Positions 15,928 through 58,115 of a DNA stretch of 64,000 nt are shown piece by piece. This DNA is from Hormiphora californensis (Eukaryota > Animalia > Ctenophora): positions 8,432,001-8,496,000 of the forward strand of contig CM035354.1 of the NCBI GenBank assembly GCA_020137815.1, read 5' to 3'. The notes under the pieces are model-generated. The model did no database searches. It worked only from the letters and a program-made list of their open reading frames with translations, and had not been told where the DNA came from. Each line of letters starts with the position of its first letter. Within the stretch, counting starts at the first letter, position 1. The position numbers and the translations under genes were made by a program.

Positions 15928-18900
15928 AGCCATGTCGGTGTTAGGAAAATGTGTGTTTCACTAATAACCTGAAGGTAAATATTGCATTTCTGGTTGGAGC
16001 TGCAGTTTCAGTGAGCGCCACGGAAAGGGAGTGTAGATCACGAAGTTTCTCCTCTCCTCTTGAGACCTGTTAGAGAGGGGGTTGGGTATACCGGAAATAT
16101 AAGGGGACGATTAGTACAGACAGTAGTTGCAGTAGAACCTCTGTCCCTATCTGACTCTCCCTCTCTATCGTTCCCTATCGATGTATCTCTTTCTAGATAT
16201 ATCTCTGACATGTAACTGACCTGTTCCCTGTAAAATGCCAGTACGTAGAGGGCCCTGTTGTAACTGTTCATGTGATGAAGTACAGTACTGGCCAACATCC
16301 CTACCGCTGCCTGGAAACTAACCCTTCCTGAGAGAAATAGGGAGATCACAGAGTGAGAAATAGGAATATAGAAGAGAGAGAAATAAGATCACAGAGAGAA
16401 GAAGAAGATCACAGAGAATGAAATACGAAGATCAGTCTACTGTGACACTAATCACTATACCTTGTACAGCTAACTCCAAATCTTCTTCTAGAACGGACGT
16501 TGCTCGTGTTAGTTCCCTGATTTCCTCTTTAGCTCCTCTCAACTCCTCCTGACAGGAATGAAGGGACCCATGGGACACCTGTAACAATACATGTGTTAAA
16601 CAAAAAGTGTTAAATAGCAGAGTGTAGTATTAAGTAGTGTTTATACCTTTAGTTTACTATTTAAAGTCTCCACTAGCTGCATGAAGTTTGATTCCAGTGT
16701 CTTGGAATGCTCAGAGTGCCGACCCTCATTTTCAGCTAATTTCCTGGCACACTCTACCCTGGCACCGTCCACGTTCTTACTAAGGGTCTCCATGGCGACA
16801 TTGCATGCCCGTATCTCCTCCTGGGCTTCTTTCAACTAAGAAAATGTTCATAGTGTAGTAGGGACGATATATTGTCAGTGAAGTGTGAGGGATGTTTTTT
16901 AACAAGGAAAGTAGGAAGGGGCATCACATGGGCATAACAGGAATGTATTGTGTTACCTGTATGTTCATATCCTGTTTCTGGGTGACAGTATTTCGTGCAG
17001 CCTGTAACACAGCAGCACACACCTCACTCCACTCACTCTCCCCTCCAACATACCCCAGCACCTCCCCTATCTGGCACACCGCCTCACACTGACCCTGTAT
17101 AGAGGGAGAGCATTGTGGAAGGAGAAGACACTGTCAGATTGGAGCATTGTGACTGGAGAAGATCTGTCAGATCTGGCAGCATGTGAAATGAACTGCTTGT
17201 TTGAACTGTGGTGGCACAACAACAACACAATAAATAACAATACATAGAAGAATGGAAGATTACACAGAGCACTGCTGTGGTGACACTGCAAAAACACTTG
17301 ACAGCACACCACGTGTACCTTTAGGGAGACATGTTTCTGTTTGATAATTTCCTTCTTGTCCTTCAGAAGAGTGAGAGCTTTCTCTTGTTCAGTAGCAAGG
17401 AGGGATGACATGTCCTGTAACTGCTGCTGAAGTGTCCTGTTTGTATACAGCAGGGATGCTCTCTCATTCTCAGTGGCAGTCTGGGCAGCTCGCACTTCTG
17501 ATAACCTGGAGAGGGACGGATAAATTACACAGGCTTCAAACCACTTTAGTCTTTGCCTACTGGATATTTGATAAATGTTTAACTGAACAATAAGTAAGGC
17601 TGATTACTAACTGAGATTGAAGGGAGGTGATGGTAGACGATTTGGTGTCAAGAGACGCCTTCTGGACATCTATTACAGAACTGTGCTGATGAATTGTCCT
17701 CTGCAATACAGTCAGTTCCTCGTTTTGCTTTAAATTCTACATTAGGATGAAAATGTTAGGTATGTGAAGCTTCAACTCGGCTTCTGAGTGAACTGTACCT
17801 GGTTATGAAGATCTTGAAGCTTGGTGGCCAAATCTTCGGTCATTTTACGCGGGGTACATTTAGTCCCTGGTGGTCCAGGAAACTGCTGACGATGCAAACT
17901 CTCCAGACCTCTCACTCCCTCCCCATACTGGCTTTCAATCTGTAATGGAAGTAGAATAACACATGGTATCCGGTTACTGATAACATACACCACTTCATTA
18001 CAGGGTCGGGTATCCCTCTCTTTCTCATGCCACTTCCCTATAACAATTCTGCAGTATCTGTCTTATGGTAACATGCATTAGCTTTTAGCTTTGAAAACTT
18101 GCCTCCAATGGGATTTCAAAAGATTCCTTGTACTTCCTAAAACGAGCCAGTTCTGTTTACTTTAGCTGTGTTATGTCTTTGGATGAGTTCGAATGTGGAA
18201 TCTGCCTAGATTTGTGTCAAGAGGCAGTTGCCACTGAATGCTGCCACCATCTGTTTTGCAAGGGATGTTTGGAACGGTGCAGAGAGTGTCCAGCATGTAG
18301 GAATCACCCCCTTTCCTCCTACCCTAACATACCGGTCAGGAGGATTATCGAGAGAACGTTATCAGCACCGCCTGCCACCCCATCTGCACCTCCCCTTTCT
18401 GAGGTTCCAGATGAGGCTACCAAATCTCCAGCCTCATCTCTCTTCTCTTCTTCTCGACGCTCTCAGCGGGGTGAGCTGTGTGAGTTTTGTAACGAGATGA
18501 TACCCAAGAAAGGGATGAAGAAACACAAGACCAAGACCTGCCGAAACAGGCACGTGGAATGTAACAAGTGCAAGGCATGGGTTTCAGAGAGGGAACTTCA
18601 GGGACATGATAACAACTCCTGTCCCATGAGGCTTGTTCGCTGTATTTTCTGTGGCTTCTCACCTGCTGCAGCTAACATGGATAGACACTATAGGACAGCG
18701 TGTCGAGCAAACCCAACCCCCTGTAGACACTGCTCTGTTTTGTACAGTAAACCCCAACTACATCTTCACGAGACGAAAATGTGCACGCTCAGAGAGGTTG
18801 AGTGCCCCCAATGTACCACTGTTCTCTGCTTCGAAGATCTTGGTAGTCACATGGAGACGACATGCCCCTTTCGACAGGTCGAGTGTCCGGATTGTCACGA

Positions 18901-21092
18901 GAGTGTACTGGTAGAGGAACTAAACTTGCACAAAGTATCTGCCTGTACAGCACGTCCAATAGCCTGCTTCTTATGCAGCGCTGTGGTGATAGCAAATAAC
19001 GTAGATGAACATTTGAACGATCTGTGTCCAAAACGGAAGATTGAGTGTAAGATATGCAAAGGTTTAATAACGAGTGATAACTTCTGTTGGTCAAAGTGCC
19101 CTAACATGTTTGAAGTACATTGCATGTTGTGTAGAAGGGTTGTTAAGAAAAGGAATATAGTGTCTCACAGTCAGAGTTGTACTGAATGTGTCGCATGTAA
19201 AGAAAGAGTGAATGTTTCCGATTTGAGCTATCACGCAATTGAGCCCAAAATATTGGTAATCAAACACAGAGAATGCAGGATTGAATCTAGTGAAGACAAA
19301 CTTGATGAGAAAAGTACATGTATCATCTCTTAATTTGTTACTTTTTATAAACACGTGTATTACCTGATCCATACCGTCCTGTAATTGAGATAACTCCTGT
19401 CCCAGCTCAGTACAAATGGTCTGATGGTGAGCTAGGTCAGCAACCAATACTTCAATCTCTTTATCCTTCTCTCTTCTCAACTTCTTTAGCTCATCTGTCC
19501 GCCTCTCCAGCTCCTTTGAACCCCTGCAGGTTAGAAGGTTAATATTTGATAATACGAGTCCAGTCAGTGATGTATAATACCTTGCAATGGTATGGTCTTG
19601 TGTTGTCCTCTCTTTTTCCAAGTCCTCAACAAGTGCTCGCAATGTCTTCACCTCAACCTCCAGACGCTCCTTCTCCGCTCTCTCCTGGGCAAGGGTTCCC
19701 TTGAACTCATCCTTACTTTTTTCAATGAGAACCATCTCCTCTTCAATACCCTGGAAATGTGGATGGAAACAGTGAGCAGGAATAATAGCGAGTAAAATGT
19801 GTAACAAGGTTGATTGGTTGGCAAAATAATATTACCGCTAGTTGTTGAGCATTTTGTATATTGAGCCCCCTTTCTCGTTGTAAGTTTTCCTCCACTCTTT
19901 TCCTATCCTCGGAACATTGGGCAAGTTCCTCTTTCATCTTCTCTTCCCGTTGCTCTAGTACCGCAACTTTAACAAGAGTCTGTCGTAATATCTCCTTGTC
20001 GCTGGTCCATGACATTTCACAAGTCTTTAGTTGATTGATAACATTCCCAACCTCACTGAAGGGGAAAGTAATTATATCAACACTGACATCTAGAGTTGAT
20101 ACTATACCAGATACTATTTAAAATTACCTTTTTTGCTCATCCAAAGCTTTAGAAAGATCTTCTATGCACTTTCTTTTTTCGTCTGATTCAAAGTTTAGAA
20201 ACTCGATAATCTGATCCTTTTCTGCAGCGGCTGCCTTCAGTTTCTCGCTACTCCTGGCCATGTTTTGCTGTTCCATCTCTGAGGCTTTGTGGGCCAACCC
20301 AACTGCCTTCTCCCACTCCTTCGCCCTGTTCTGTGCTTCTTTTACCAAATCTAAACAAAATAATGTGACACTATGACGCATCAACTCGCTGCTGTTTCTC
20401 CCAAACTGCAAAATTAACAAGGCCCCCTAGTGGGATGCAGTGTGGGATATTCTGCAGACGGATGGACGCTATGTTACCTTTATAACGGCTAACTTCGCTA
20501 CACTGTCTTTCCTCAGCTGCCTCTAGTTCCTCCCGAAGTTCTCGTCCTTGTTTTTGTTCCACAAGAAGATCATATTCCGTTTTGTGCCGAGAAGCCTCAC
20601 TCTTTTCCAGAAGGGTTCTCAGCCGTGACATGACGGCCTCCTCTCCACTGCTCTTATCATTGAGCTTACTAACAGTCTCCATTAGGTCAGTCTCTAGTTT
20701 GATTATCCGTTTCCTTAGCGACATTGCCACATCACCTGACAGAATTTAGAGTTCTTAAAATTGTTTTAAATTGTTTAGCATTGAAATCTAAGTACCTGAG
20801 AAAAAGGATCGATTAACCTTGATTACATATGGAAATATCGAGCAAAATGTAAACGAGTAGAATAACTTACTGTCGCTTGAGTGTTGATTGTCCAGTTCGA
20901 CGCATTTTCTTGTGAGACTCTCGTTTAGAGATCGTTCAACCTCCAGCTCTTGTTGCAGCATAGTCACTCCATTCAGTACCTAAATCTCAAAATTCAGTTG
21001 AACTTCATAAAAAAGGACTGATAAACAACAAATCACAGACACTTCATGCAATCCCACACTCATGTTACCTCCTCTTCGTCTATCTCGTTCAT
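13032..21092 (-). CDS. CCDC171: Coiled-coil domain-containing protein 171-like, multi-exon; exons around 15000-15700 are garbled
   Basis: Start MNEIDEEE (21069-21092). Exon LRTLLEKSEASRHKTEYDLLV matches CCDC171 [31 protein letters not shown] motif near 14920-14950; heptad-rich exons with GT-AG ends; last exon stops at 13032. Confidence 0.75.
18173..19333 (+). CDS. Intronless RING-finger plus multiple TRAF-type zinc-finger protein (putative E3 ligase), C-terminal CaaX (CIIS), nested antisense in CCDC171 intron 17940-19363
   Basis: C3HC4 RING CGICLDLC..C.HLFCKGC..C..CPAC, then repeated CxxC-x11-12-H-x3-4-C units (e.g. HMETTCPFRQVECPDC). ATG at 18173 lies 7 nt after TTTAG. No MATH domain. Confidence 0.9.
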   Translation: MSLDEFECGICLDLCQEAVATECCHHLFCKGCLERCRECPACRNHPLSSYPNIPVRRIIERTLSAPPATPSAPPLSEVPDEATKSPASSLFSSSRRSQRGELCEFCNEMIPKKGMKKHKTKTCRNRHVECNKCKAWVSERELQGHDNNSCPMRLVRCIFCGFSPAAANMDRHYRTACRANPTPCRHCSVLYSKPQLHLHETKMCTLREVECPQCTTVLCFEDLGSHMETTCPFRQVECPDCHESVLVEELNLHKVSACTARPIACFLCSAVVIANNVDEHLNDLCPKRKIECKICKGLITSDNFCWSKCPNMFEVHCMLCRRVVKKRNIVSHSQSCTECVACKERVNVSDLSYHAIEPKILVIKHRECRIESSEDKLDEKSTCIIS

Positions 21093-24661: not shown

Positions 24662-27600
24662 ATGGCACCAAAGATAGATGGATATACATTTCAAGAGAAA
24701 CTAGGAACCGGCACCTACGCGGCAGTCTATAAAGCCAAGGTGAGCACTGTGTGTGTTTTGATGTAAGATCCTACTGTTAGAGGGTGTCACCATGCCTCAC
24801 ATTTTTACAGAATTCTTCATTTTTAGGACGTGTCCGGACAGCATGTGGCTATAAAATGTATCAAGAAAAGATCTCTTAGTAAACTGGGTGCAGATAATCT
24901 AATCACAGAGATTCAAGTATTAAAGAATCTAAAACACCGCCACATTGTTCAACTATACGATTTCTTGGTAAGTACATATATCTTCATCGAACCACGGAGT
25001 TTTTACGTCATCCGACCCGAAACCGGCTTAAATTTGGACATCCAAACATGTCAAAATATGTTTAACTTTTCATTTGGGCATGGGGTCATTTAGACCCTTT
25101 AATTACACTTGAATCACCCTACTTGTCATTAAATTTTAATGATATTTAATTACTTCCAATTACATTCCAGTTACCCTCCTCACTCACTAGGTTCAGGATT
25201 TCGTTACGAAGTCACCCCTAATATTGCATGGCAATAATAACAGAGGGGTAATTTCATTACCAAGTTCAGGATATCGAGAGATTTCGAACACATCCTAAAA
25301 ACCTTTCTGGTACTCCTAATTTAATTGCCGAGTTATGCATAACCCCTATTTTAAGTTGTTACTCAACAAATTTTGAGCGTTTTTCGCATCCTACCCCTTA
25401 TGGGTTTGGGTACGGCCATCGCCGCACCCCCTATATGTCGCGGGACCTCGAGATCTTTCCAACAAGCCCTAGAAAACCTCTACGAAGTACTTCAGGGGGC
25501 TTCAAAACTTTCATTGTAACTTTCACTCTGTAACTATTAGGGGGGGGGGGCGGCTGAAGTTTTTGAAGTTTGAAGTTTTCCACCCTACTTTTTGAGTTTT
25601 GGAAGTTTTTGAAGTTGACTTCAAAAACTTCAAAAACTCTAAACTACTTGTATATATGCTATCAGTGACTATTATTACACTTGTTTAAATTTAGGTTAGT
25701 TTCATGCTTAATACATATTGTGGCAAAGTTATCCGTCCTTGTCTGCTCTTTTTCTATCACAAATTAGGATATTTACAATGATTCCTAGCCATGATAATCC
25801 TTGGCACAATTTGGTGTAAAAACTGATTTTATTTTCATTCTATGTATAACTCAAAACATTGCCTAGAAAATACTAAGAAAGTGTTTAAAAATTATGAAGT
25901 AAATTTTCAAATTTTTTTGGGGCAACACCCTTTTTGCCAGTTTCACAAAATGCAAATTCTTTATGAAGGGAGTAGTGAAAAAAAATATGGACACCAAAAT
26001 CATCAGCGGTCTCGAGTTAGTGGGGGTACGTACCAAAATGAAGTCTCCACCTCATCTAATTCGAGGGATAATTTTCATAATTTTGTGTGTGTGCATGACT
26101 TTTTTTTGGGCTAGACCAGTTTTAATGGTTTATGAGTGACTATAGGCTTTTTAAATGGTGCATCTTGTTCGAAATATGCAAGTTTATATAAGAGTTATGA
26201 AGCAACATAGGGCCTATCTCCAACGGTTTAGGAGATATGAGTTTTTGAAGTTTTTGAAGTTTTCCACCCTAAGTTTCTCTTTGAAACTTCAGCCGCCGCC
26301 CCCCCAACTACTAGTTACATATGTTGCAGTATGACGATGAGAATATATACCTTATCTTGGAGTACTGCCGTTTAGGGGACCTGTCATCCTTTATCGCTGT
26401 TAAAGGGAGGGTGGAAGAGACTCTTGTCAAACAACTAACCCAGCAACTTGCACTGGCTCTCAGGTAGATCTTTAGTGTTTATATATAAGGGTTACTTGAT
26501 GTCCTGTTGTTTACCATCTCACTCTCTACTTTCAGGTATATGAATAAAAAACAAGTGGCCCATCTAGACCTCAAACCCCAAAACATTCTTCTTACCGGAA
26601 CACACAGAGAACCCCGGATTAAAGTGGCTGACTTTGGTTTTGCAAAGATCCTGAAATCCAATACACCATCAACGGACGCCTCGATACGAGGATCCCTCCT
26701 CTACATGGCTCCAGAGATAATTCTGACTCGGTCAAGTTATAACGAAACATTAGCCGATATGTGGAGTGTGGGTGTTATCATATTTGAGAGTCTTTGTGGT
26801 CGGGCCCCCTTCGCCTCTCGGACCTACGATGAACTACTCTTGAAAATATCGGACAAGAAACCAGTTCAAATTGAAGGAGTGGTCAGTGCCAGTAGACTAT
26901 GTATATCACTGATCAGCAAGTTGCTTGAACGGGACCCTGCCCATAGGCTTTCCTTTCAAAAGTTTTATAATCACCAATTTCTGGATATGGAGCATGCTCC
27001 AACCCCCTCCTCCCTTCCCGCTGCGGTACGTATTGCTCCAACCCCCTCCTCAATATCTATAGCAGTCATTTACAATACGGGGCGGCCACGAGAGTGCTCG
27101 ACCGGGGGTTAGAGGGAGCTGGATACAAATTGAAACACTTGTGTCAAACATATGTTTCATGATGTCAATGACACCAATCATCAGTGCTCAAATTAATTTG
27201 TTTAAAGTAGTGTTGAAAAGTTTGAAACTTTTCAACACTATTTTTCAACACTACTTTAAATAAATTAATTTGAGCACTGATGATTGGTGCCATTGACATC
27301 ATGAAACATATGTTTGCCACAAGCTAAAGTGTTTCAATTTGTATAGCAGTCATTTAAATATAATTGCAATATATAACTTGTGTAATTACCTTTAGAGAGA
27401 CCTGGTAGAGGAGGCAGTGTGTTGTGATACAGCAGGGGACTACGAGGAAGCCATCCGACTATACACCCGATCCCTCGATCACTTTCTCGCTGCAATTCAA
27501 TGTAAGGCAACACTTTATCACTGCAATTCAATGTAAGGCAACACTGCTACAACACAAGGGGACCCTTAATGCTGACTCAAACACACATTTTCAGATGAGC

Positions 27601-49779: not shown

Positions 49780-52700
49780 AAGATTTACCTCTGTTTTTCA
49801 ACACAAAGACAGATAGACCGATAGACCGATAGACTGATAGATAGACAGACATACTGTAGTCTGAAAATGAAGTTTCATGCATTTAATTTTTTCTCAATTC
49901 TCAATTTTTAGTCATGCCCGAGATTGCTTTATATTATCTCGATGCTTTGCAACACAACCATGACTCCCCCTTCTACATCTTACACTCGTGCGCTATTGGC
50001 TGGAAAGAGTCACGTGATGTACATCACGTGACTCTTCCCAAACACTCTCTCTGTAGGATTTCCCTAATAAAAGTTTGCTTAATAACAGGTTTCTTAATTC
50101 GTGATCTGCACCCTCCAGGATTGCTTAATTTTGCTTAATTTTAGAGTTAGTAATAAGAGGACCCTTAATTTTCCTATATTTTAATTTTGGGTTGCTTAAA
50201 AGCTTGTTCTTAATTTTGGAGAGTAAGGTAGTCTATATCTAAAAGCGGACTCTTTATCTACAGTTTAACTGAATCAATAAGTTGACCAATCGGCTGTTTT
50301 TGAGTCGCATAGTTCTGATACAATGAAATAGTGTTTATTTAAGACTGTATACGACTCGGAGATTTATTCCAGAAAATATAATACGGGACGGTTTCGACGT
50401 TTAACGTCAACATCAGCTCAAATTAATTTGTTTAAAGTAGTTAAGAGCAAGACAAGACATAGCTTGAGAATGTGCCCCAGACAGACCAATTTACGATAAA
50501 TATCAAATCAACCTCCACTGCGTCACACGCAACTTGAAAATCGCTGAGGTGAAATTTTACCTTCTTCAAAGACCAAGACCTTGTCAAAGGCAAAAAGTTA
50601 CCTACCTGACCAAGACCCTCCAGAAGCCCAAACAATGAGTCTCTCTCTCCCAGAAAGGAACTCAACGCTATAGTTACCACATACCCGGGTTGGTATGGGG
50701 GTTTGCCGAGCGTACCCCATGGTTTAGTATCAAAACACCGAGTAAAATATATAGTATCCCATTGTTTGATCTCCGTCAGTATAACGGTGACCTGCATGCG
50801 GGAGGTACTATAACACACTGGCTGTTCTGTCTGTGTATCATAATCATGATAATGTGACTCAGCGCAAAAAGTAGTGCGCGTTCCGTCCAAAGTAGAGTGC
50901 TGTCACTAGATACTTTTCACATAGCAACATCAAATAAACTTTGCCCGCGCAGGATGTTATGCAAATTTGAGCTGATGAGCACAATATTATAATAGCAAAA
51001 ACATGATAAACAATAAATAATAAAATGATTTAGAATCTGTTTCCTTACCATTGAGAAGCAAGAATCGGTCCTCACTATTCAGGTTTGTTCTTATAGTCTG
51101 GAAGAGTTGGGGGCAATGCTCTGGTATCTCACTTAGTAATATCTGTGTGGGCAGGATGGGTAAGGGCAGCTGGAATCATTTCTTACTATTTAAGAAAAAG
51201 TTTTTTTTTCCAAACATTTGTTTGTCCCTGACACAAAAAAGATAACAAATATACCCTCACCCAGCACCCCACATATTGTATTACCTCTTTTGTAACAAAA
51301 GACAGGATTTCCAAAGCGTTGTTTCGTAAAGGGGTACACCTTGATTTAATTCCCTGCGATAAACACTGTTGGCGTGTGTGTTTCAAAGGAAGTACTAGGC
51401 AAGGAAAATGGGATATAATACACTATGAATGAAAACCAAGGTAAAATATCTGACCTGGAAAATGAAGGGCAGGAAGTTTTCTCTGGCTAGGAGGAACTGG
51501 ATATTTGTTGATGTATGGCAAAGGTTGCTCATCACTGTTAATATCTGAAAAAAACACAGTTAAACAGGGCCGGGATTTGAACAATATCACTGTGGTGTAT
51601 CTTATTCTAATCCTCCTTTACGAAGCTCGTGAAAAGGGGGTCGAGCTAGGCAAGGTGTATCACTGTCGTGTCACAATGTCAGTATGGGAGTGGGACCTAA
51701 CTCGTCTAAGTAAGCCTTACCTGAACTGTCTGAGTTCTCCAAGAAATATCACCAGTGTTAAAAAAGCATTCATTATCAGATTTATCAGTTACACTTTCTC
51801 TCCAGAACTCTCCCTGTTCCTCATTTTCCCAATGGCTGTCGACTAGGAACCCGGTATTAGCCAGCAGCGCGGTGTACAGGTTGGGGTACTTAGGGAGGGG
51901 TAGTGACCACCCTTTAGTTAGCCACAGGAGCACGTTAACACCAAACTGAACCTCGTTAGGAAGTCCACTTTGAAGCTGTCTGATTACAGGCTGAATGTTG
52001 TATTGTTCTGCGGGGGGTTTTGTAGATTAAATAGTTGTAGTTAATCACCGCAAACAGGGGAGAAAAATAAATAAAATTATTTTGTTCAGTTGACCATGTT
52101 ACCTGGGGCACCAGTTACTTTGGCCAATTTCAAATCGTCTCTGGTAGAATGATTGGTACTCCTCTCTAGGAAACTTGCTCTTTTCGGGTTCAACCGGCAA
52201 AACTATTTTCTTTTTAGCACCTTCATTTAATGGCGGAGAGCGGTTATTCTGCATTACTTTTCAAAGCATTATTTGGAGAAACGTTGCTGTTATTCTCCAC
52301 TCCCTCAACCACGTATTTCCAGTACACCCGAAAAAGGATAAGGGCGCTGGCCTCATCAGGGCACCCCATCTCCGTGGATATCTTGCCCCAACTGCCCTAA
52401 AATAGAATTAGAGTTTAGGTCCAACACATTCGGGAGGGGGGGGGGGGGGTGTCCAATGTCCATAAACCAAAATCAGGATATTACTTTTACAAATGGACTA
52501 CCTGGACAGTGGAGCCTCCTCCACGTCTACTTACCACACATGGTTCGTAGCTGAAGTCTCCTTTAGCTTCTCTTATTCCATATGTCAGTAGGTAAAGTTT
52601 ATAGAGATCGACTTTCTTGTTATTCACTTTTATCGGACATGTAAGTCTGTGAGAAAATTTGGGTTAGTTTACGAAAGGGGAATGGAGCCACAATTTATTT

Positions 52701-52865: not shown

Positions 52866-55401
52866 GGGGGGGGTTCAACCTAAAAATTTCCATTTCCATT
52901 TGCCAAAATCCGGGTATCGATGGAAATTTTTAGAAATTTTTAGAAATTTTTAGAAGTTTTTAGAAATTTTTAGAAGTTTTTAGTACTAAAAATTTCCAAA
53001 AATTTCTAAAAATTTCCAAAAATTTCCATTAATTTCCAAAAATTTCTAAAAATTTCTAAAAATTTCCAAAAATTTCCATTGACCAAGAAAAGAAAAATTA
53101 ACAAAAACTTGAAAATATATAAACACAGTTGTCGAAGAACTGGTTCCTTTTCCTTACCTCTTGTGACAACTGAGCATCAATAAGTTATTGAATGATAGAT
53201 AAGACATCGATATCATATATTTTTGGGCAATCCGTACAATTTCTTCAGAAATCATAGCTTCATTGGACAACTAAGGACGCGGACGTCTCGAAAACTGATT
53301 TAAAAGTAAGTTACCAAATAGCACAAGATTTAGGGGCCGGCAGGCACCTCCGACCCGAAGAAAACAGCAAAAAACGAAAAAAAGAAAAAAAATTTTTTGC
53401 CCCTGCACAAAAACCCAAAAATGCCGGCCCTATTAAGAACAAAGAAAGGTCTTTTTTTTTGGGGGGGGGGGGGGCAAAAAACATGTCAACGATTGTGGCC
53501 ACACCGTTTGAGATATCGACTTGAAATTTTGTAGGCATGTTCTTGTAGTATTCCTTTGTGTCATGACGTTGGCGGATTTTTGAATTTTTAATTAATTAAT
53601 TAATTATAGGTAATTAAAAACGGTGCAAGGGCACCGTGCCCCTGCACATTGCGTGTTCTGTCCCTTGCACCGCGCCCTTGCACCAAATTCTATTTTCCGT
53701 TCTGCTTAAAATATCGACTTGAAACTTTGTAGGAATGTTCTTCAATCATAAAAGATGATGTTCGAAAAGTGGGAATAGTCAAAATTAATTAATTAGTTAG
53801 TTAGAGCCGTGCAAAAAATGGAATTTGGTGCAAGGGCAGGCAATGTGCAAGGGCAAATGGTGCAAGGGCAGCCCTTGCACCAATTTTATGATCGAACTGT
53901 GTCCACACCGTTTAATATTTTGACACGAAACTTTCTATGCATGTTCTAGTAGCATAACTACGAGTACTAGAAGAGCCGTATGATTAATATATCAATTAGG
54001 TAATTAATTATAGGCAAATTAATTAAAATTTGCCCCTGCACAATTTGTGCAAATTTCCCCTGAACATGTGCCCTTGCACCATTTTGTTTGCCCCTGCACA
54101 TTTTTTGCAACTTTGATATTCAAACTGTGGCCACACCGTTTGAAATTTCGAAATGAAACTTTGCATGTATGTTCTAGTAGTATAACTACGAGTCATAACG
54201 GAGCCGGATTTTTGATTTTCTAATTAATTAATTAATTATAATCAATTAAAACTTTTGCCCCTGCACCAATTTGCCCCTGCACAGTTTTGGCAAATTTGAT
54301 ATTCAAACTTTGAGCCTTTGTGAAAGTAATGAAAATTATTTATTTCAGGTTATGATGAACAATAAGCTATAAAAACGCCCCTTTTTGTTACACAAGCCTG
54401 TGCTTGGTATCGAAGACACCTCACACTCTGTCGCCGGGCGACCTTCGCGTGCACACGCTGGCAAGGGGTAACTTCGTAACCAAAGCCTGTGCATTGTGCA
54501 TAATGAAATGGATAAATTTTCATCCAGTTGCTGGCGATAGAACTCGATAGAGTTCGATTGATTTACCATGACAACGGAGTTGGTTACCATACTAACAAGA
54601 GAATTCGTTGTAAAATAGTCCTTTCTTGCTATAAACTCGGCCTTTAGATAGAAAATTGATTTTATTCTACTCGCACTAATGCAAGGGCATTTCACAGTTT
54701 GGTGCCGTTATTTTTGTCTCTATTTTTAATAGGATTTTGGGATTAGACTGAAAGTATGGGATCATTTGAGAAGTAGTGAAGATTTGAAACATGTTAGCAA
54801 CTTGCCGGTTCGACAAACTAAACCCATATGATTCCAACTTCGGGTCGGACGAGGGGAAGCTTGCCTTTTGCGAACATACCTTATGTACTTATATAAGGTG
54901 CTATTTGGTAACTTACTTTTAAATATTCCTTCGGACGGGTCCTTTTACCATGACTAATGCTTAATACCGTAGTAGATCAGGTTTCTTAGCATACAATATA
55001 GAAACTTAAACTCTTTTTTAAACTCGATAAGGGATATAGCGAGAATAAGTACTAACTTACTGTCGAAAACATGCATAGATTACCTGTCATTACCTTGGAA
55101 TTGGGTTACCGACGAACTTATATAAACTTCTAAAAGTTTCTAAAAACTTCTAAAAATTTCTAAAAATTTCTAAAAACTTCTAAAAATTTCTAAAAATTTC
55201 CATTTACTAAAAACTTCCAAAAATTTCCATTGTCCATAAATTTCTAAAAATTTCTAAAAATTTCTAAAAATTTCCAAAAAATTCTAAAAATTTCCAAAAA
55301 TTTCCAAAAATTTCTAAAAATTTCTAAAAATTTCCAAAATAAAATTTCCATTTGCCAAAAAAGTGGGTATCAATGGAAATTTTTAGGGTTGAACCCCCCC
55401 C
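52866..55401. mobile_element. Foldback element with (AAAAATTTCT)n arrays, containing a nested TTAA-flanked TIR element (~53300-54922)
   Basis: G8TTCAACCTAAAAATTTCCATT ... AATGGAAATTTTTAGGGTTGAAC8; TSD ATGTCTT. Inner TIRs TTAAAAGTAAGTTACCAAATAGCAC / GTGCTATTTGGTAACTTACTTTTAA. Confidence 0.85.
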
Positions 55402-55519
55402 ATGTCTTTCTGACAGAGAGATAGTTTAAACAAGGGTCTTTCTAATCAATAAACCAGAATTCGCTTTCATTTATAGTTTTTCTTCATTAATAGTTTTTCA
55501 ATATTTCAACATGTTGTGT

Positions 55520-55589
55520 CCCTTGTATTACATCAGCAATTAATCACCGTATTGGTTTTCAATTAACCACGTCATTTTTATACTATGGG
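55520..55589 (-). promoter_or_regulatory. Type II SECIS element
   Basis: AUGA (55575-72) + C + 10-bp helix GUGGUUAAUU/GAUUAAUUGC; unpaired GAAA; ministem ACC-AAUAC-GGU; UGAU (55535-32); lower helix CCCAUAGUAU/AUACAAGGG. Confidence 0.9.
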
Positions 55590-55593
55590 CATT

Positions 55594-55971
55594 TTAGATC
55601 AGGGCACACGAAGAAGATTGTGCACCAATTTCACCAGCACTTTCTCCTTTGCTAACGGCCCCGCACGCAACTGCCAGGTCCTCGTAGACAGGAAAACTTC
55701 CTGTTTGCAGTTTGCTGTAGACCACTTTACCGTCTACCACAACCTAAAACATAACATGGGCATTGGGCTTGAGCTAAGTGTGTTTTTTAGTAAGTTTATA
55801 AATATGGACAGTAAGATTGTATCCCTCCCCTCAGTTTACCTCGAAGCTGCTAGAACGGCCGACTTTACCGCTCACTTTAGCATCGGGGAAGTGACTGCTG
55901 AGAACACTGGCGAATTGCCTATAGCGAGGACCGTACCCTCAGGCACCACAATATTCCACTTCCACGATCAT
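55594..55971 (-). CDS. Selenoprotein of the Rdx family (SelW2/MIEN1-like), 93 aa, two exons (55971-55840, 55743-55594), Sec UGA at 55941-55939, C-terminal CaaX
   Basis: MIVEVEYCGA[U]GYGPRYRQFASVLSSHFPDAKVSGKVGRSSSFE|VVVDGKVVYSKLQTGSFPVYEDLAVACGAVSKGESAGEIGAQSSSCALI*. CxxU motif, GRxxSFEV, SKL..G.FP; phase-0 GT-AG intron; SECIS in the 3' UTR. Confidence 0.95.
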
Positions 55972-56185
55972 CCCGTGCTTATGTATTTCTATAGAACTTT
56001 CTAGAACATGGAGGGATAGAATAATGATTAGTTGGGCAAGAAAGGGTAGGATAAACTGGGGAAATTGGCAGATAAACTGGGGACAGGGTTTACTTCAGAC
56101 TTCAGAGGGAAGGTTGGTAGTAAAACTCGTAAATAAATTGCAATCAAAATGTTAATTCATCATCAAACTTAAAACATCAATAGTT

Positions 56186-58115
56186 TCACCACTTTCCCTT
56201 TCCTTTTTTCTTGGGCTTCCCCTTGGGCTTGTTAGCAGGTTGTTTCCCGGATTGTGGCGGGATTACAGGTTCTTCGATGACGGGCTCAGTTTTCTTACCA
56301 ACTTTTTTAGACATATCTAGAGCGGCCTCGGCTGATTTATTAGCAGAAGAGAGGCCTTGAGATCCCTTTCCAATCGCTTCATTCCTGTTCCTCTTCTTAC
56401 GTCTATAGTAACTTCTTTCTTGCCTGGGAATCCATCGCTCAGGATCAGCTCCACCTTCCACCAACACCTTAGGTAACCTGATCTTCTTTTTCTTCCTCTT
56501 TTTCTCCTTTGTCTCAAACCTTCTGTTTGCTTCACTCAGTTTCGCATCTTCAGGATTTATTACTTTCCGCAGTCCACGTGCAGCTGTAACTCCAGTTCCT
56601 ATCTCCAACTCCTCAAGGTCAATGTCCGAAGGTATTTCGATCTCTGGAAGGCGTTTCGCAACTTCATAAGCACGCGAAACATCAAATTGGGACACAGATC
56701 GAATTAGAAGAGCGAGAGCCTTAACATTTCCAGGATACCTAGACAGCAGGATTTCCAATGAAGAAGCTGCATCTTTCGGCATGTCATAGGCGAGACGAAA
56801 CCTAGCACAAATCAGGGTCCACTTTATTAGGTTAGCAGGATCACAAGTTTCCGCGAGATCTTTCAAACTTTTATCCATGTACTCAGCGGCCTTTTCCGGT
56901 CCTGACCCAAGGAAGTAAAGAGCACTGATAAGAGATGCCATTCCTGGCTTGTTTGCCATTGACTTGATTTTGATAAGGGCGGAAGCAGCATCAGCAAATG
57001 AACCTAATTTAAGGAGAAGTTGAGAGGCAGCCAACAAAGTTTTTTCAGTCCGAAGTGTTTTCTACTGCCAGGACCTTGAGAGCATCGTTAAGTTTCTTAT
57101 CTCGGATGTAGGAGGATGCCAAGAGAAGGTGGGCCATAGGTACTCCTTCTGCAGCCATATCAGCACTCTTCTTTCTAAACTGATCCATGTGGTTGGTATG
57201 ATAAGACAGAAGGCAGGAGTTAAACTCAATCGAAAGCAGTTGAGCCTTTGTGAGTTTCTTTGGTGCACTAGTAGCAATTTTAACTTTTTTCTTGCTATCG
57301 AACATGTTTTGCTCTTTGTTAATGGAAATTATGTTGTTAGCAGCAACAGCAAGGGTTTGAGAATCACCATATTTCTCTCTTAGAACAGTGCCATATATCT
57401 CCATCGCATCCTTATCATTCCCCTCTTTTTGCAGACACAATCCTCTCATAACTTCAATGGGTGCTAATTCACATTTCGCATCCGTTTCATCATCTTCAAA
57501 TTCTTTAGAACATAACTCCCGAGCTCGGTTCAATTTATTATTTGCTTCCACCAGGTCCCCCTTTGCAAGGCAGTAACAGGCAGAATTGTAGGACAGTTCA
57601 TATGTGCTTTCTCGAAGACCTGGCCACTTGTTTGGAGTGTTGCTAAAGGAAGCAGAAGATGCAAGAGCGGCGGCCAGATTAGTCTCACGCTCATTGGTGT
57701 TCGCGTCAACTAAGCTCTTTACAAGAGTTTTGTAAATTGATACAGCACTATCATAATTCTCCAGTTTGTAGTAAATTTGGGCCAGCAGTTCGTCCACCTT
57801 TGAAGATGGTTCAGCTTTATTCAATTCTGTCAGGGCATCTTCAAGTTTTCCTTGACGGTACAGACAGTACGCTCTATCGAACCACATCGGAATGTCTTTA
57901 AGCAATTTGTCAGTGCTCATCACATGATATGCCTCCTTGCATTTGTCGGTCTTCATCAAGCAGATAACTTTGCATCTCAATGCATCCTCGTCTTTGGGAT
58001 TTCGTTTTAAAATTTCAATGCACAGCGGAAGAGCTTTGGCGAAATTTCCATCATTTCCAAACTTCTGAATCTGAGTAAATAGCTGCTCAACTGTTTTTTC
58101 AGTGACAGACGTCAT
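56186..58115 (-). CDS. SRP72: Signal recognition particle subunit SRP72, intronless, one apparent frameshift at ~57040-57046
   Basis: TPR region (DALRCKVICL, FDRAYCLYR, ELLAQIYYKLENY..Y, ERETNLAA, TYELSYNSAC) and the RNA-binding motif KKKIRLPK..ADPERWIPRQERSYYR..GKGSQG. The two ORFs abut across 7 nt. Confidence 0.95.

What the first reader, a model, noticed from the sequence alone, without database searches (positions are those of the whole stretch)
55520..55990. Hidden selenoprotein: CxxU SelW2/MIEN1-type gene with SECIS and a prenylation motif
Seen: the ORF track offers only an antisense artefact here (55585-56004 +). The minus strand encodes a complete 93-aa Rdx-fold protein with an in-frame TGA in YCGA-U-GY, a type II SECIS starting ~5 nt after the stop, and a CALI end. 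Known: Rdx-family members use CxxU or CxxC, and mammalian MIEN1 is the Cys form with a prenylated CaaX. Inference: this is a membrane-anchored Sec oxidoreductase combining both features in an early-branching animal, which ab initio annotation would probably truncate or miss.
Basis: partly seen in the sequence, partly recalled or inferred. Interest (0 to 1): 0.85.

Follow-up and report, generated by a model that had tools for sequence, protein, structure and literature searches.

The report
Comb-jelly selenoprotein W2 gene, lipid-tailed
This is a real, spliced and transcribed gene, likely from a comb jelly, for a small redox protein whose internal UGA 'stop' is predicted to be read as selenocysteine and whose tail is predicted to carry a lipid anchor; it is an ordinary member of a known family in which that pairing appears common.

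Summary
The minus strand carries a two-exon, 93-codon Rdx-family gene (55971-55594) with TGA at codon 11 (CxxU), a SECIS-like hairpin just after the stop, and a CALI end.

RNA contigs from 7 of 7 runs laid (7 studies) list no change at the TGA, and 6 of 7 skip the 96-nt GT-AG intron. All 10 coding variants are synonymous; the antisense ORF takes 9 of 10 as changes, one a stop. The mRNA carries a 5' leader matching the published ctenophore spliced leader, 184 nt after the stop of a same-strand SRP72 gene.

The claimed novelty fails. 107 of the top 120 homologues end in Cxxx, including 84 of 96 with W (inferred UGA) at the Sec site, and 13 of 14 fish proteins named SelW2 end in Cxxx. SELENOW2 is already reported from invertebrates, including Trichoplax.

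Sec insertion and prenylation are inferred, not shown. The SECIS scores below Rfam's cut-off. This scan noted similar genes twice on other genomes. Verdict: new member of a known kind.

The parts
56001..56002 (-). Trans-splice acceptor AG; the spliced leader joins here, leaving a 29-nt genomic 5' UTR (56000-55972)
   Evidence: Contigs of X3, X6, X8 and X14 (4 of 7 runs) continue past 56002 with 23-25 non-genomic letters that are the reverse complement of the 3' part of the ctenophore leader printed in PMC8527503. No copy of the two leader motifs searched lies upstream on this strand in the window.
55840..55971 (-). Coding exon 1, 44 codons, with the CxxU motif
   Evidence: Pfam Rdx model 2-45, E 1.5e-9; covered by RNA contigs in 7 of 7 runs, only partly in X14.
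55939..55941 (-). In-frame TGA, codon 11, predicted selenocysteine
   Evidence: no change listed in X3, X8, X14, X17 (complete table) or in X1, X2, X6 (truncated table).
55744..55839 (-). 96-nt GT-AG intron, phase 0, with three in-frame stops if retained
   Evidence: skipped by contigs of X1, X2, X3, X6, X8, X17.
55594..55743 (-). Coding exon 2, 49 codons plus TAA
   Evidence: Pfam Rdx model 46-68; best PDB hit human MIEN1, E 4.9e-4.
55597..55608 (-). C-terminal CALI, predicted CaaX prenylation signal
   Evidence: Sequence; no variant listed in these codons; Cys at -4 in 107 of 120 homologues.
55523..55585 (-). SECIS-like element with an apical mini-stem (type II; type definition recalled): helix I, AUGA/GA core, 10-pair helix II, unpaired AAA
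   Evidence: Rfam SECIS_1 23.3 bits; pair register; variants at 55569 and 55539 turn G-U pairs into G-C.
55439..55460 (-). Approximate poly(A) site region
   Evidence: T-run loose ends before 55439 (X6) and 55460 (X1).
56186..58115 (-). Upstream SRP72 gene, same strand, stop 184 nt before the trans-splice acceptor; possible operon partner
   Evidence: Pfam SRP72 and SRP_TPR_like; poly(A) loose end at 56134 in X6.
55585..56004 (+). Antisense 139-codon ORF, not a gene
   Evidence: No Pfam match; 9 of 10 variants non-synonymous, one a stop; it runs through the spliced-out intron.

Best explanation
This is a transcribed, spliced two-exon gene, likely of a ctenophore, for a 93-residue SELENOW2/MIEN1-type Rdx protein; its UGA at codon 11 is predicted to be read as selenocysteine through the 3' UTR SECIS, and its CALI tail is predicted to be prenylated, so that it would work as a membrane-tethered thiol/selenol oxidoreductase. 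Shown: the mRNA gains a spliced leader at 56001, loses a 96-nt intron, keeps the UGA and is polyadenylated about 135-155 nt after the stop. Inferred from established Sec biology: SBP2 and eEFSec bind the SECIS 268 nt downstream and recode the UGA, giving a Cys8-x-x-Sec11 centre that cycles between selenenylsulfide and reduced forms. Inferred from human MIEN1: Cys90 is prenylated (probably geranylgeranylated; the rule for a terminal Ile is recalled), the last three residues are clipped and the end is methylated, placing the redox site at the cytosolic face of membranes. With one Lys and two Glu in the last 24 residues there is no polybasic second signal, so attachment is likely loose or to endomembranes. 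Substrates are unknown; membrane-proximal signalling or cytoskeletal proteins are the likeliest guess.
For: Contiguous Rdx match over both exons. Intron skipped in 6 of 7 RNA runs and no change listed at the TGA in 7 of 7. 10 of 10 coding variants synonymous against 23% expected (binomial 4e-7, an overstatement because haplotypes are related). SECIS_1 is the lowest-E Rfam hit. The five substitutions and one 2-nt insertion seen inside it spare the core and the AAA, and two convert helix II G-U pairs to G-C. The UGA-to-SECIS distance of 268 nt exceeds the 51-111 minimum cited in PMC3316567. The protein groups at 96/88 support with five W+Cxxx homologues, one of which shares a 90% cluster with a Mnemiopsis protein. 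Human MIEN1 is geranylgeranylated at CVIL and has a -225 mV CxxC (PMC6738349, PMC3527542).
Against: The SECIS scores 23.3 bits, under Rfam's gathering score of 35, and folds no better than shuffles (z -1.13; 26 of 200 as good). There are no two-sided compensatory changes. No genome was held, so tRNA-Sec, SBP2, eEFSec and prenyltransferases were not checked. The RNA evidence is from assembled contigs, which drop rare variants and show neither strand nor level. There is no polybasic patch beside the CaaX. 13 of 120 listed homologues lack the terminal Cys (some may be truncated models), and so does a second Mnemiopsis-cluster paralogue fragment.
Confidence: 0.8

Rival explanations
1. It is a true selenoprotein but the CALI end is not prenylated in vivo, so it acts as a soluble cytosolic SelW-like reductase.
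For: No polybasic or second lipid signal; several relatives, including the Capsaspora protein P0007, lack the tail; the exact tetrapeptide CALI occurs in none of the 107 Cxxx homologues.
Against: Cys at -4 followed mostly by aliphatic residues is kept in 107 of 120 homologues while the linker diverges; the human homologue is prenylated.
Confidence: 0.13
2. The TGA is a real stop and the locus is an expressed, decaying pseudogene that makes a 10-residue peptide.
For: Sub-threshold SECIS score and unremarkable folding energy.
Against: All 8 listed variants downstream of the TGA are synonymous; the SECIS core is invariant; the homologous position is W or C in 120 of 120 relatives.
Confidence: 0.03
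3. UGA is read as Trp or Cys by a variant nuclear code or by leaky read-through, without selenium.
For: Unnamed homologues are stored with W at this position.
Against: The SRP72 ORF next door ends in TGA (sequence); a SECIS-like element follows the gene; fish SelW2 is described as CxxU (PMC3316567); named fish models mostly skip this site instead of reading W.
Confidence: 0.03
4. The functional gene is the antisense 139-codon ORF.
For: It is the longest uninterrupted ORF here.
Against: No family match; 9 of 10 variants non-synonymous with one stop; leader, GT-AG intron and poly(A) all read on the minus strand.
Confidence: 0.01

Closest known systems
SELENOW2 (SelW2) of fishes, amphibians and invertebrates
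   Same: Rdx domain, CxxU, length near 95 residues, C-terminal Cxxx (13 of 14 named fish SelW2). PMC13134290 places all its invertebrate members in this branch; PMC3828610 reports SelW2 in flatworms, Lottia and Trichoplax.
   Different: Ctenophore lineage, for which I found no selenoproteome report (listings); SL trans-spliced; about 42-44% identical to the fish-type proteins P0186 and P0093.
MIEN1 (Rdx12, C17orf37)
   Same: Best PDB hit for both exons; similar SKL..G.FP segment and CaaX tail.
   Different: Amniote MIEN1 is CxxC and has an N-terminal extension of about 24 residues that is absent here. MIEN1 proper is proposed to arise in jawed vertebrates, and fish MIEN1 copies already carry Sec.
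SELENOW (SelW1)
   Same: Rdx domain and CxxU; exon 1 scores almost equally against it (23.0 vs 24.3 bits).
   Different: Exon 2 does not hit it at E<=10; the homologue profile scores 46 bits against it versus 85 for MIEN1.

Membership tests
Rdx family (PF10262) | Profile match above the curated cut-off | tested here: met
   Exon 1 alone scores 38.3 bits against 22.6; exon 2 continues the model.
Rdx family (PF10262) | N-terminal CxxU/CxxC motif | tested here: met
   C8-G-A-TGA11 aligns to the MIEN1 CxxC and the SelW motif.
Rdx family (PF10262) | Thioredoxin-like fold | not tested
   No structure predicted; inferred from sequence matches to 2ljk and 2npb.
Rdx family (PF10262) | Redox activity | not testable with these tools
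   Needs an assay.
Eukaryotic selenoprotein | In-frame UGA kept in the mature mRNA | tested here: met
   No change listed in 7 of 7 runs; the table was truncated for 3 of them.
Eukaryotic selenoprotein | 3' UTR SECIS with GA/GA core and unpaired apical AA | tested here: met
   Core and AAA present and invariant; criteria from PMC3316567.
Eukaryotic selenoprotein | SECIS reaches the Rfam SECIS_1 gathering score | tested here: inconclusive
   23.3 bits against 35, E 0.069, full-length model match.
Eukaryotic selenoprotein | UGA-to-SECIS distance above 51-111 nt | tested here: met
   268 nt.
Eukaryotic selenoprotein | Sec machinery in the genome and actual Sec insertion | not testable with these tools
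   No genome held; no tRNA gene in the window.
SELENOW2/MIEN1 group | Closer to MIEN1/SELENOW2 than to SELENOW1 | tested here: met
   exon 1 alone is equivocal.
SELENOW2 (versus MIEN1 and SELENOW1) | Placement in the SELENOW2 branch of a tree with all three clades | tested here: inconclusive
   The tree (55 hand-picked rows, 96 columns) had no SELENOW1 or tetrapod MIEN1 rows and its deep forks are open; the assignment leans on PMC13134290.
MIEN1 in the strict sense | Jawed-vertebrate paralogue | tested here: not met
   Ctenophore-type leader; falls outside the fish clade.
CaaX-prenylated proteins | Cys four residues from the C-terminus followed by two aliphatic residues | tested here: met
   CALI-stop, with splice and stop supported by RNA contigs.
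CaaX-prenylated proteins | Prenylation and membrane association | not testable with these tools
   Needs labelling or fractionation.

The most novel reading that the evidence does not exclude
CxxU plus a prenylated CaaX tail is the ancestral animal state of the SELENOW2/MIEN1 group, kept from ctenophores to fishes. That would make these proteins an unremarked class of lipid-anchored selenoenzymes and human oncogenic MIEN1 its Cys-substituted remnant. In this ctenophore the gene would also be the downstream member of an SRP72 operon resolved by trans-splicing.
Probability: 0.5. Interest if true: 0.4.

Novelty: new member of a known kind. Interest (0 to 1): 0.22.

Why it matters
As a single gene it matters little. 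It extends a known selenoprotein family to a likely ctenophore and shows how gene callers miss such genes. The wider point is modest but real. Most relatives pair the Sec site with a CaaX tail, and my phrase searches of the held library found no paper naming a prenylated selenoprotein, though subscription papers were not searched. A small intact CxxU+CaaX protein is a simple test case for whether MIEN1's ancestral job is membrane-proximal redox control.

Tried and rejected
Exon 1 search among longer proteins found nothing at E<=0.001 from 1 candidate; this was a sensitivity limit of the 44-residue query, and one search found 29 hits. Three of those 29 (P0012, P0013, P0020) are repetitive proteins unrelated by inspection and were dropped.

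The metagenome scan gave 6 loci from 46 pattern matches, all with TGT/TGC at the Sec site and no Rfam hit in the 4 scanned, so it could not show that W equals TGA.

A SECIS pattern of my own matched once in 64 kb, at this element, but it was written after seeing the element and is not an unbiased control. Folding energy was uninformative.

No whole genome was held. The protein atlas did not answer. Derelle 2010 was not held. The supplement of PMC13134290 was cut before the SELENOW tree, so I could not see which invertebrates it includes; the alignments in PMC3316567's supplements are images and were not read.

Four alternative acceptors inside the intron and three downstream give frameshifted products or insertions of 4 or 11 residues; none appears in RNA contigs. 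No second Rdx gene lies in the window. No structure or complex prediction was run because neither would change the verdict.

Full report
1. Observation. The minus strand holds an ATG at 55971, a TGA at codon 11 (55941-55939) in YCGA*GY, a 96-nt GT-AG intron at 55839-55744, and TAA at 55596-55594. Spliced, this gives 93 residues ending CALI. Pfam Rdx matches exon 1 at model positions 2-45 (38.3 bits, cut-off 22.6) and exon 2 at 46-68 (15.4 bits, below the cut-off alone). The two matches abut at the proposed junction. The antisense ORF 55585-56004 matches nothing.

2. RNA evidence. Of 21 runs listed I laid 7, from 7 studies; all are assembled contigs and X1 is only guessed to be RNA. Six (X1, X2, X3, X6, X8, X17) have a contig skipping exactly 96 nt with GT-AG ends; X14 has no contig across the junction. 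None lists a change at the TGA. The table is complete for X3, X8, X14 and X17. For X1, X2 and X6 it was cut to the best-supported rows, but rows of lower depth than those contigs were shown. The 10 distinct coding variants at 9 sites are all synonymous in the minus-strand frame (23% expected), while 9 of 10 change the antisense ORF, one to a stop. The variants come from related haplotypes, so the binomial value of 4e-7 overstates independence.

3. SECIS. Rfam SECIS_1 is the lowest-E of 12 hits in 901 nt and matches the full model at 55585-55523, but at 23.3 bits it is below the gathering score of 35. Folding energy is unremarkable (z -1.13). The anatomy is canonical by the criteria in PMC3316567 (section read): AUGA/GA core, 10-pair helix II, unpaired AAA and a 3-pair apical mini-stem. 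The core lies 268 nt after the UGA. Inside the element the runs show five substitutions and one 2-nt insertion. Three substitutions fall in the internal loop, two (55569, 55539) convert helix II G-U pairs to G-C, and the insertion is at the outer end of helix I. None touches the core or the AAA.

4. Organism and context. Four of 7 runs extend past an AG at 56002-56001 with 23-25 non-genomic letters. These match the 3' part of the ctenophore spliced leader printed in PMC8527503 (passages and one section read). The window carries three leader-like copies, none upstream on this strand, so the leader is trans-spliced and the host is likely a ctenophore. In a tree of 55 hand-picked rows with the Sec column masked, the protein groups at 96/88 with P0084, P0050, P0068, P0071 and P0003. 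P0050's cluster contains a Mnemiopsis leidyi protein. The best BLAST identities are 61% and 56%. Upstream on the same strand lies SRP72, with a poly(A) end at 56134, about 130 nt before the acceptor. That layout suggests an operon but is not shown.

5. Is Sec plus CaaX unusual? No. A profile search found 247 proteins and listed 120. Of these 120, 96 have W and 24 have C at the Sec position; 84 of the 96 and 23 of the 24 have Cys fourth from the end. The seed alignment was itself rich in such proteins (11 of 13), which biases the count upward. That W stands for UGA is my inference, from three observations. All 96 W forms lack a source name. Among 78 named fish entries, none reads CxxW, one reads CxxC and 73 lack the EYC motif altogether, while 20 of 40 unnamed entries read CxxW. 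The Mnemiopsis and Mytilus NCBI models omit that segment. Of 14 fish proteins named SelW2, 13 end in Cxxx. PMC3316567 describes SelW2 as CxxU (passages). PMC13134290 reports Sec-containing fish MIEN1 and places invertebrate members in the SELENOW2 branch; 'prenyl' and 'CaaX' do not occur in its main text (passages and section). PMC3828610 reports SelW2 in flatworms, Lottia and Trichoplax (section). PMC3473315 lists SelW in sponge, placozoan and cnidarian and does not mention ctenophores (passages).

6. Mechanism. Shown: trans-splicing, cis-splicing, retention of the UGA, polyadenylation, and only synonymous variation through the frame. Inferred from established Sec biology (recalled): SECIS-SBP2-eEFSec recoding gives a Cys8-x-x-Sec11 redox centre. 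Inferred from human MIEN1 (passages of PMC6738349 and PMC3527542): prenylation of Cys90, proteolysis and methylation tether the redox domain to the cytosolic face of membranes. The tail has no polybasic patch, so attachment may be weak or to endomembranes. Substrates are unknown.

7. Classification. It is a member of the Rdx family and, by every sequence test available, a eukaryotic selenoprotein. Within the family it is nearer MIEN1/SELENOW2 than SELENOW1 (exon 1 equivocal). My tree lacked SELENOW1 and tetrapod MIEN1 rows, so the name SELENOW2 rests partly on the literature.

8. Novelty. New member of a known kind. Five phrase searches for a prenylated selenoprotein returned 0 papers, and the listings showed no ctenophore selenoproteome or explicit Sec+CaaX paper. 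Subscription journals and unread supplements could hold either. The scan's own notes record two similar genes on other genomes and no look-alike of this stretch; these are unchecked notes and not evidence. Interest 0.22.

Noticed in passing
window 57045-57048: SRP72 is split into two ORFs (58115-57045 and 57037-56186). RNA contigs of X1 and X6 lack one base at 57048, and X2 diverges at 57046, so the split is probably an assembly error or a private allele.
   Followed up: partly
window 56001-56186: Only about 130 nt separate the SRP72 poly(A) site (56134) from the trans-splice acceptor of the selenoprotein gene on the same strand, an operon-like layout. No contig bridges the gap.
   Followed up: partly
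window about 27199-27275 and 50417-50441: Three genomic copies of the ctenophore spliced-leader sequence, two as an adjacent inverted pair. None is followed by a GT donor, so they look like dispersed leader-derived repeats, not SL RNA genes.
   Followed up: partly
protein P0150 (KAL5260140.1, Mnemiopsis leidyi): The NCBI model appears to join two Rdx paralogues and omits both N-terminal CxxU segments; its first 70 residues equal P0151, which ends without a CaaX.
   Followed up: partly
window about 55120-55345: Tandem array of a roughly 10-nt AT-rich unit just downstream of the poly(A) site (sequence).
   Followed up: no
window 18095-19330 (+), 26489-27109 (+), 45984-43738 (-): Long open frames: a RING-finger-like protein, a protein-kinase-like exon and a 749-codon frame; labels are by eye.
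   Followed up: no
proteins P0026, P0066, P0091, P0095, P0110, P0127, P0144, P0022: The Cys-form homologues in the tree, seven of them named insect proteins, form one clade (98/98) and all keep the CaaX, suggesting a Sec-to-Cys change separate from the amniote one.
   Followed up: partly
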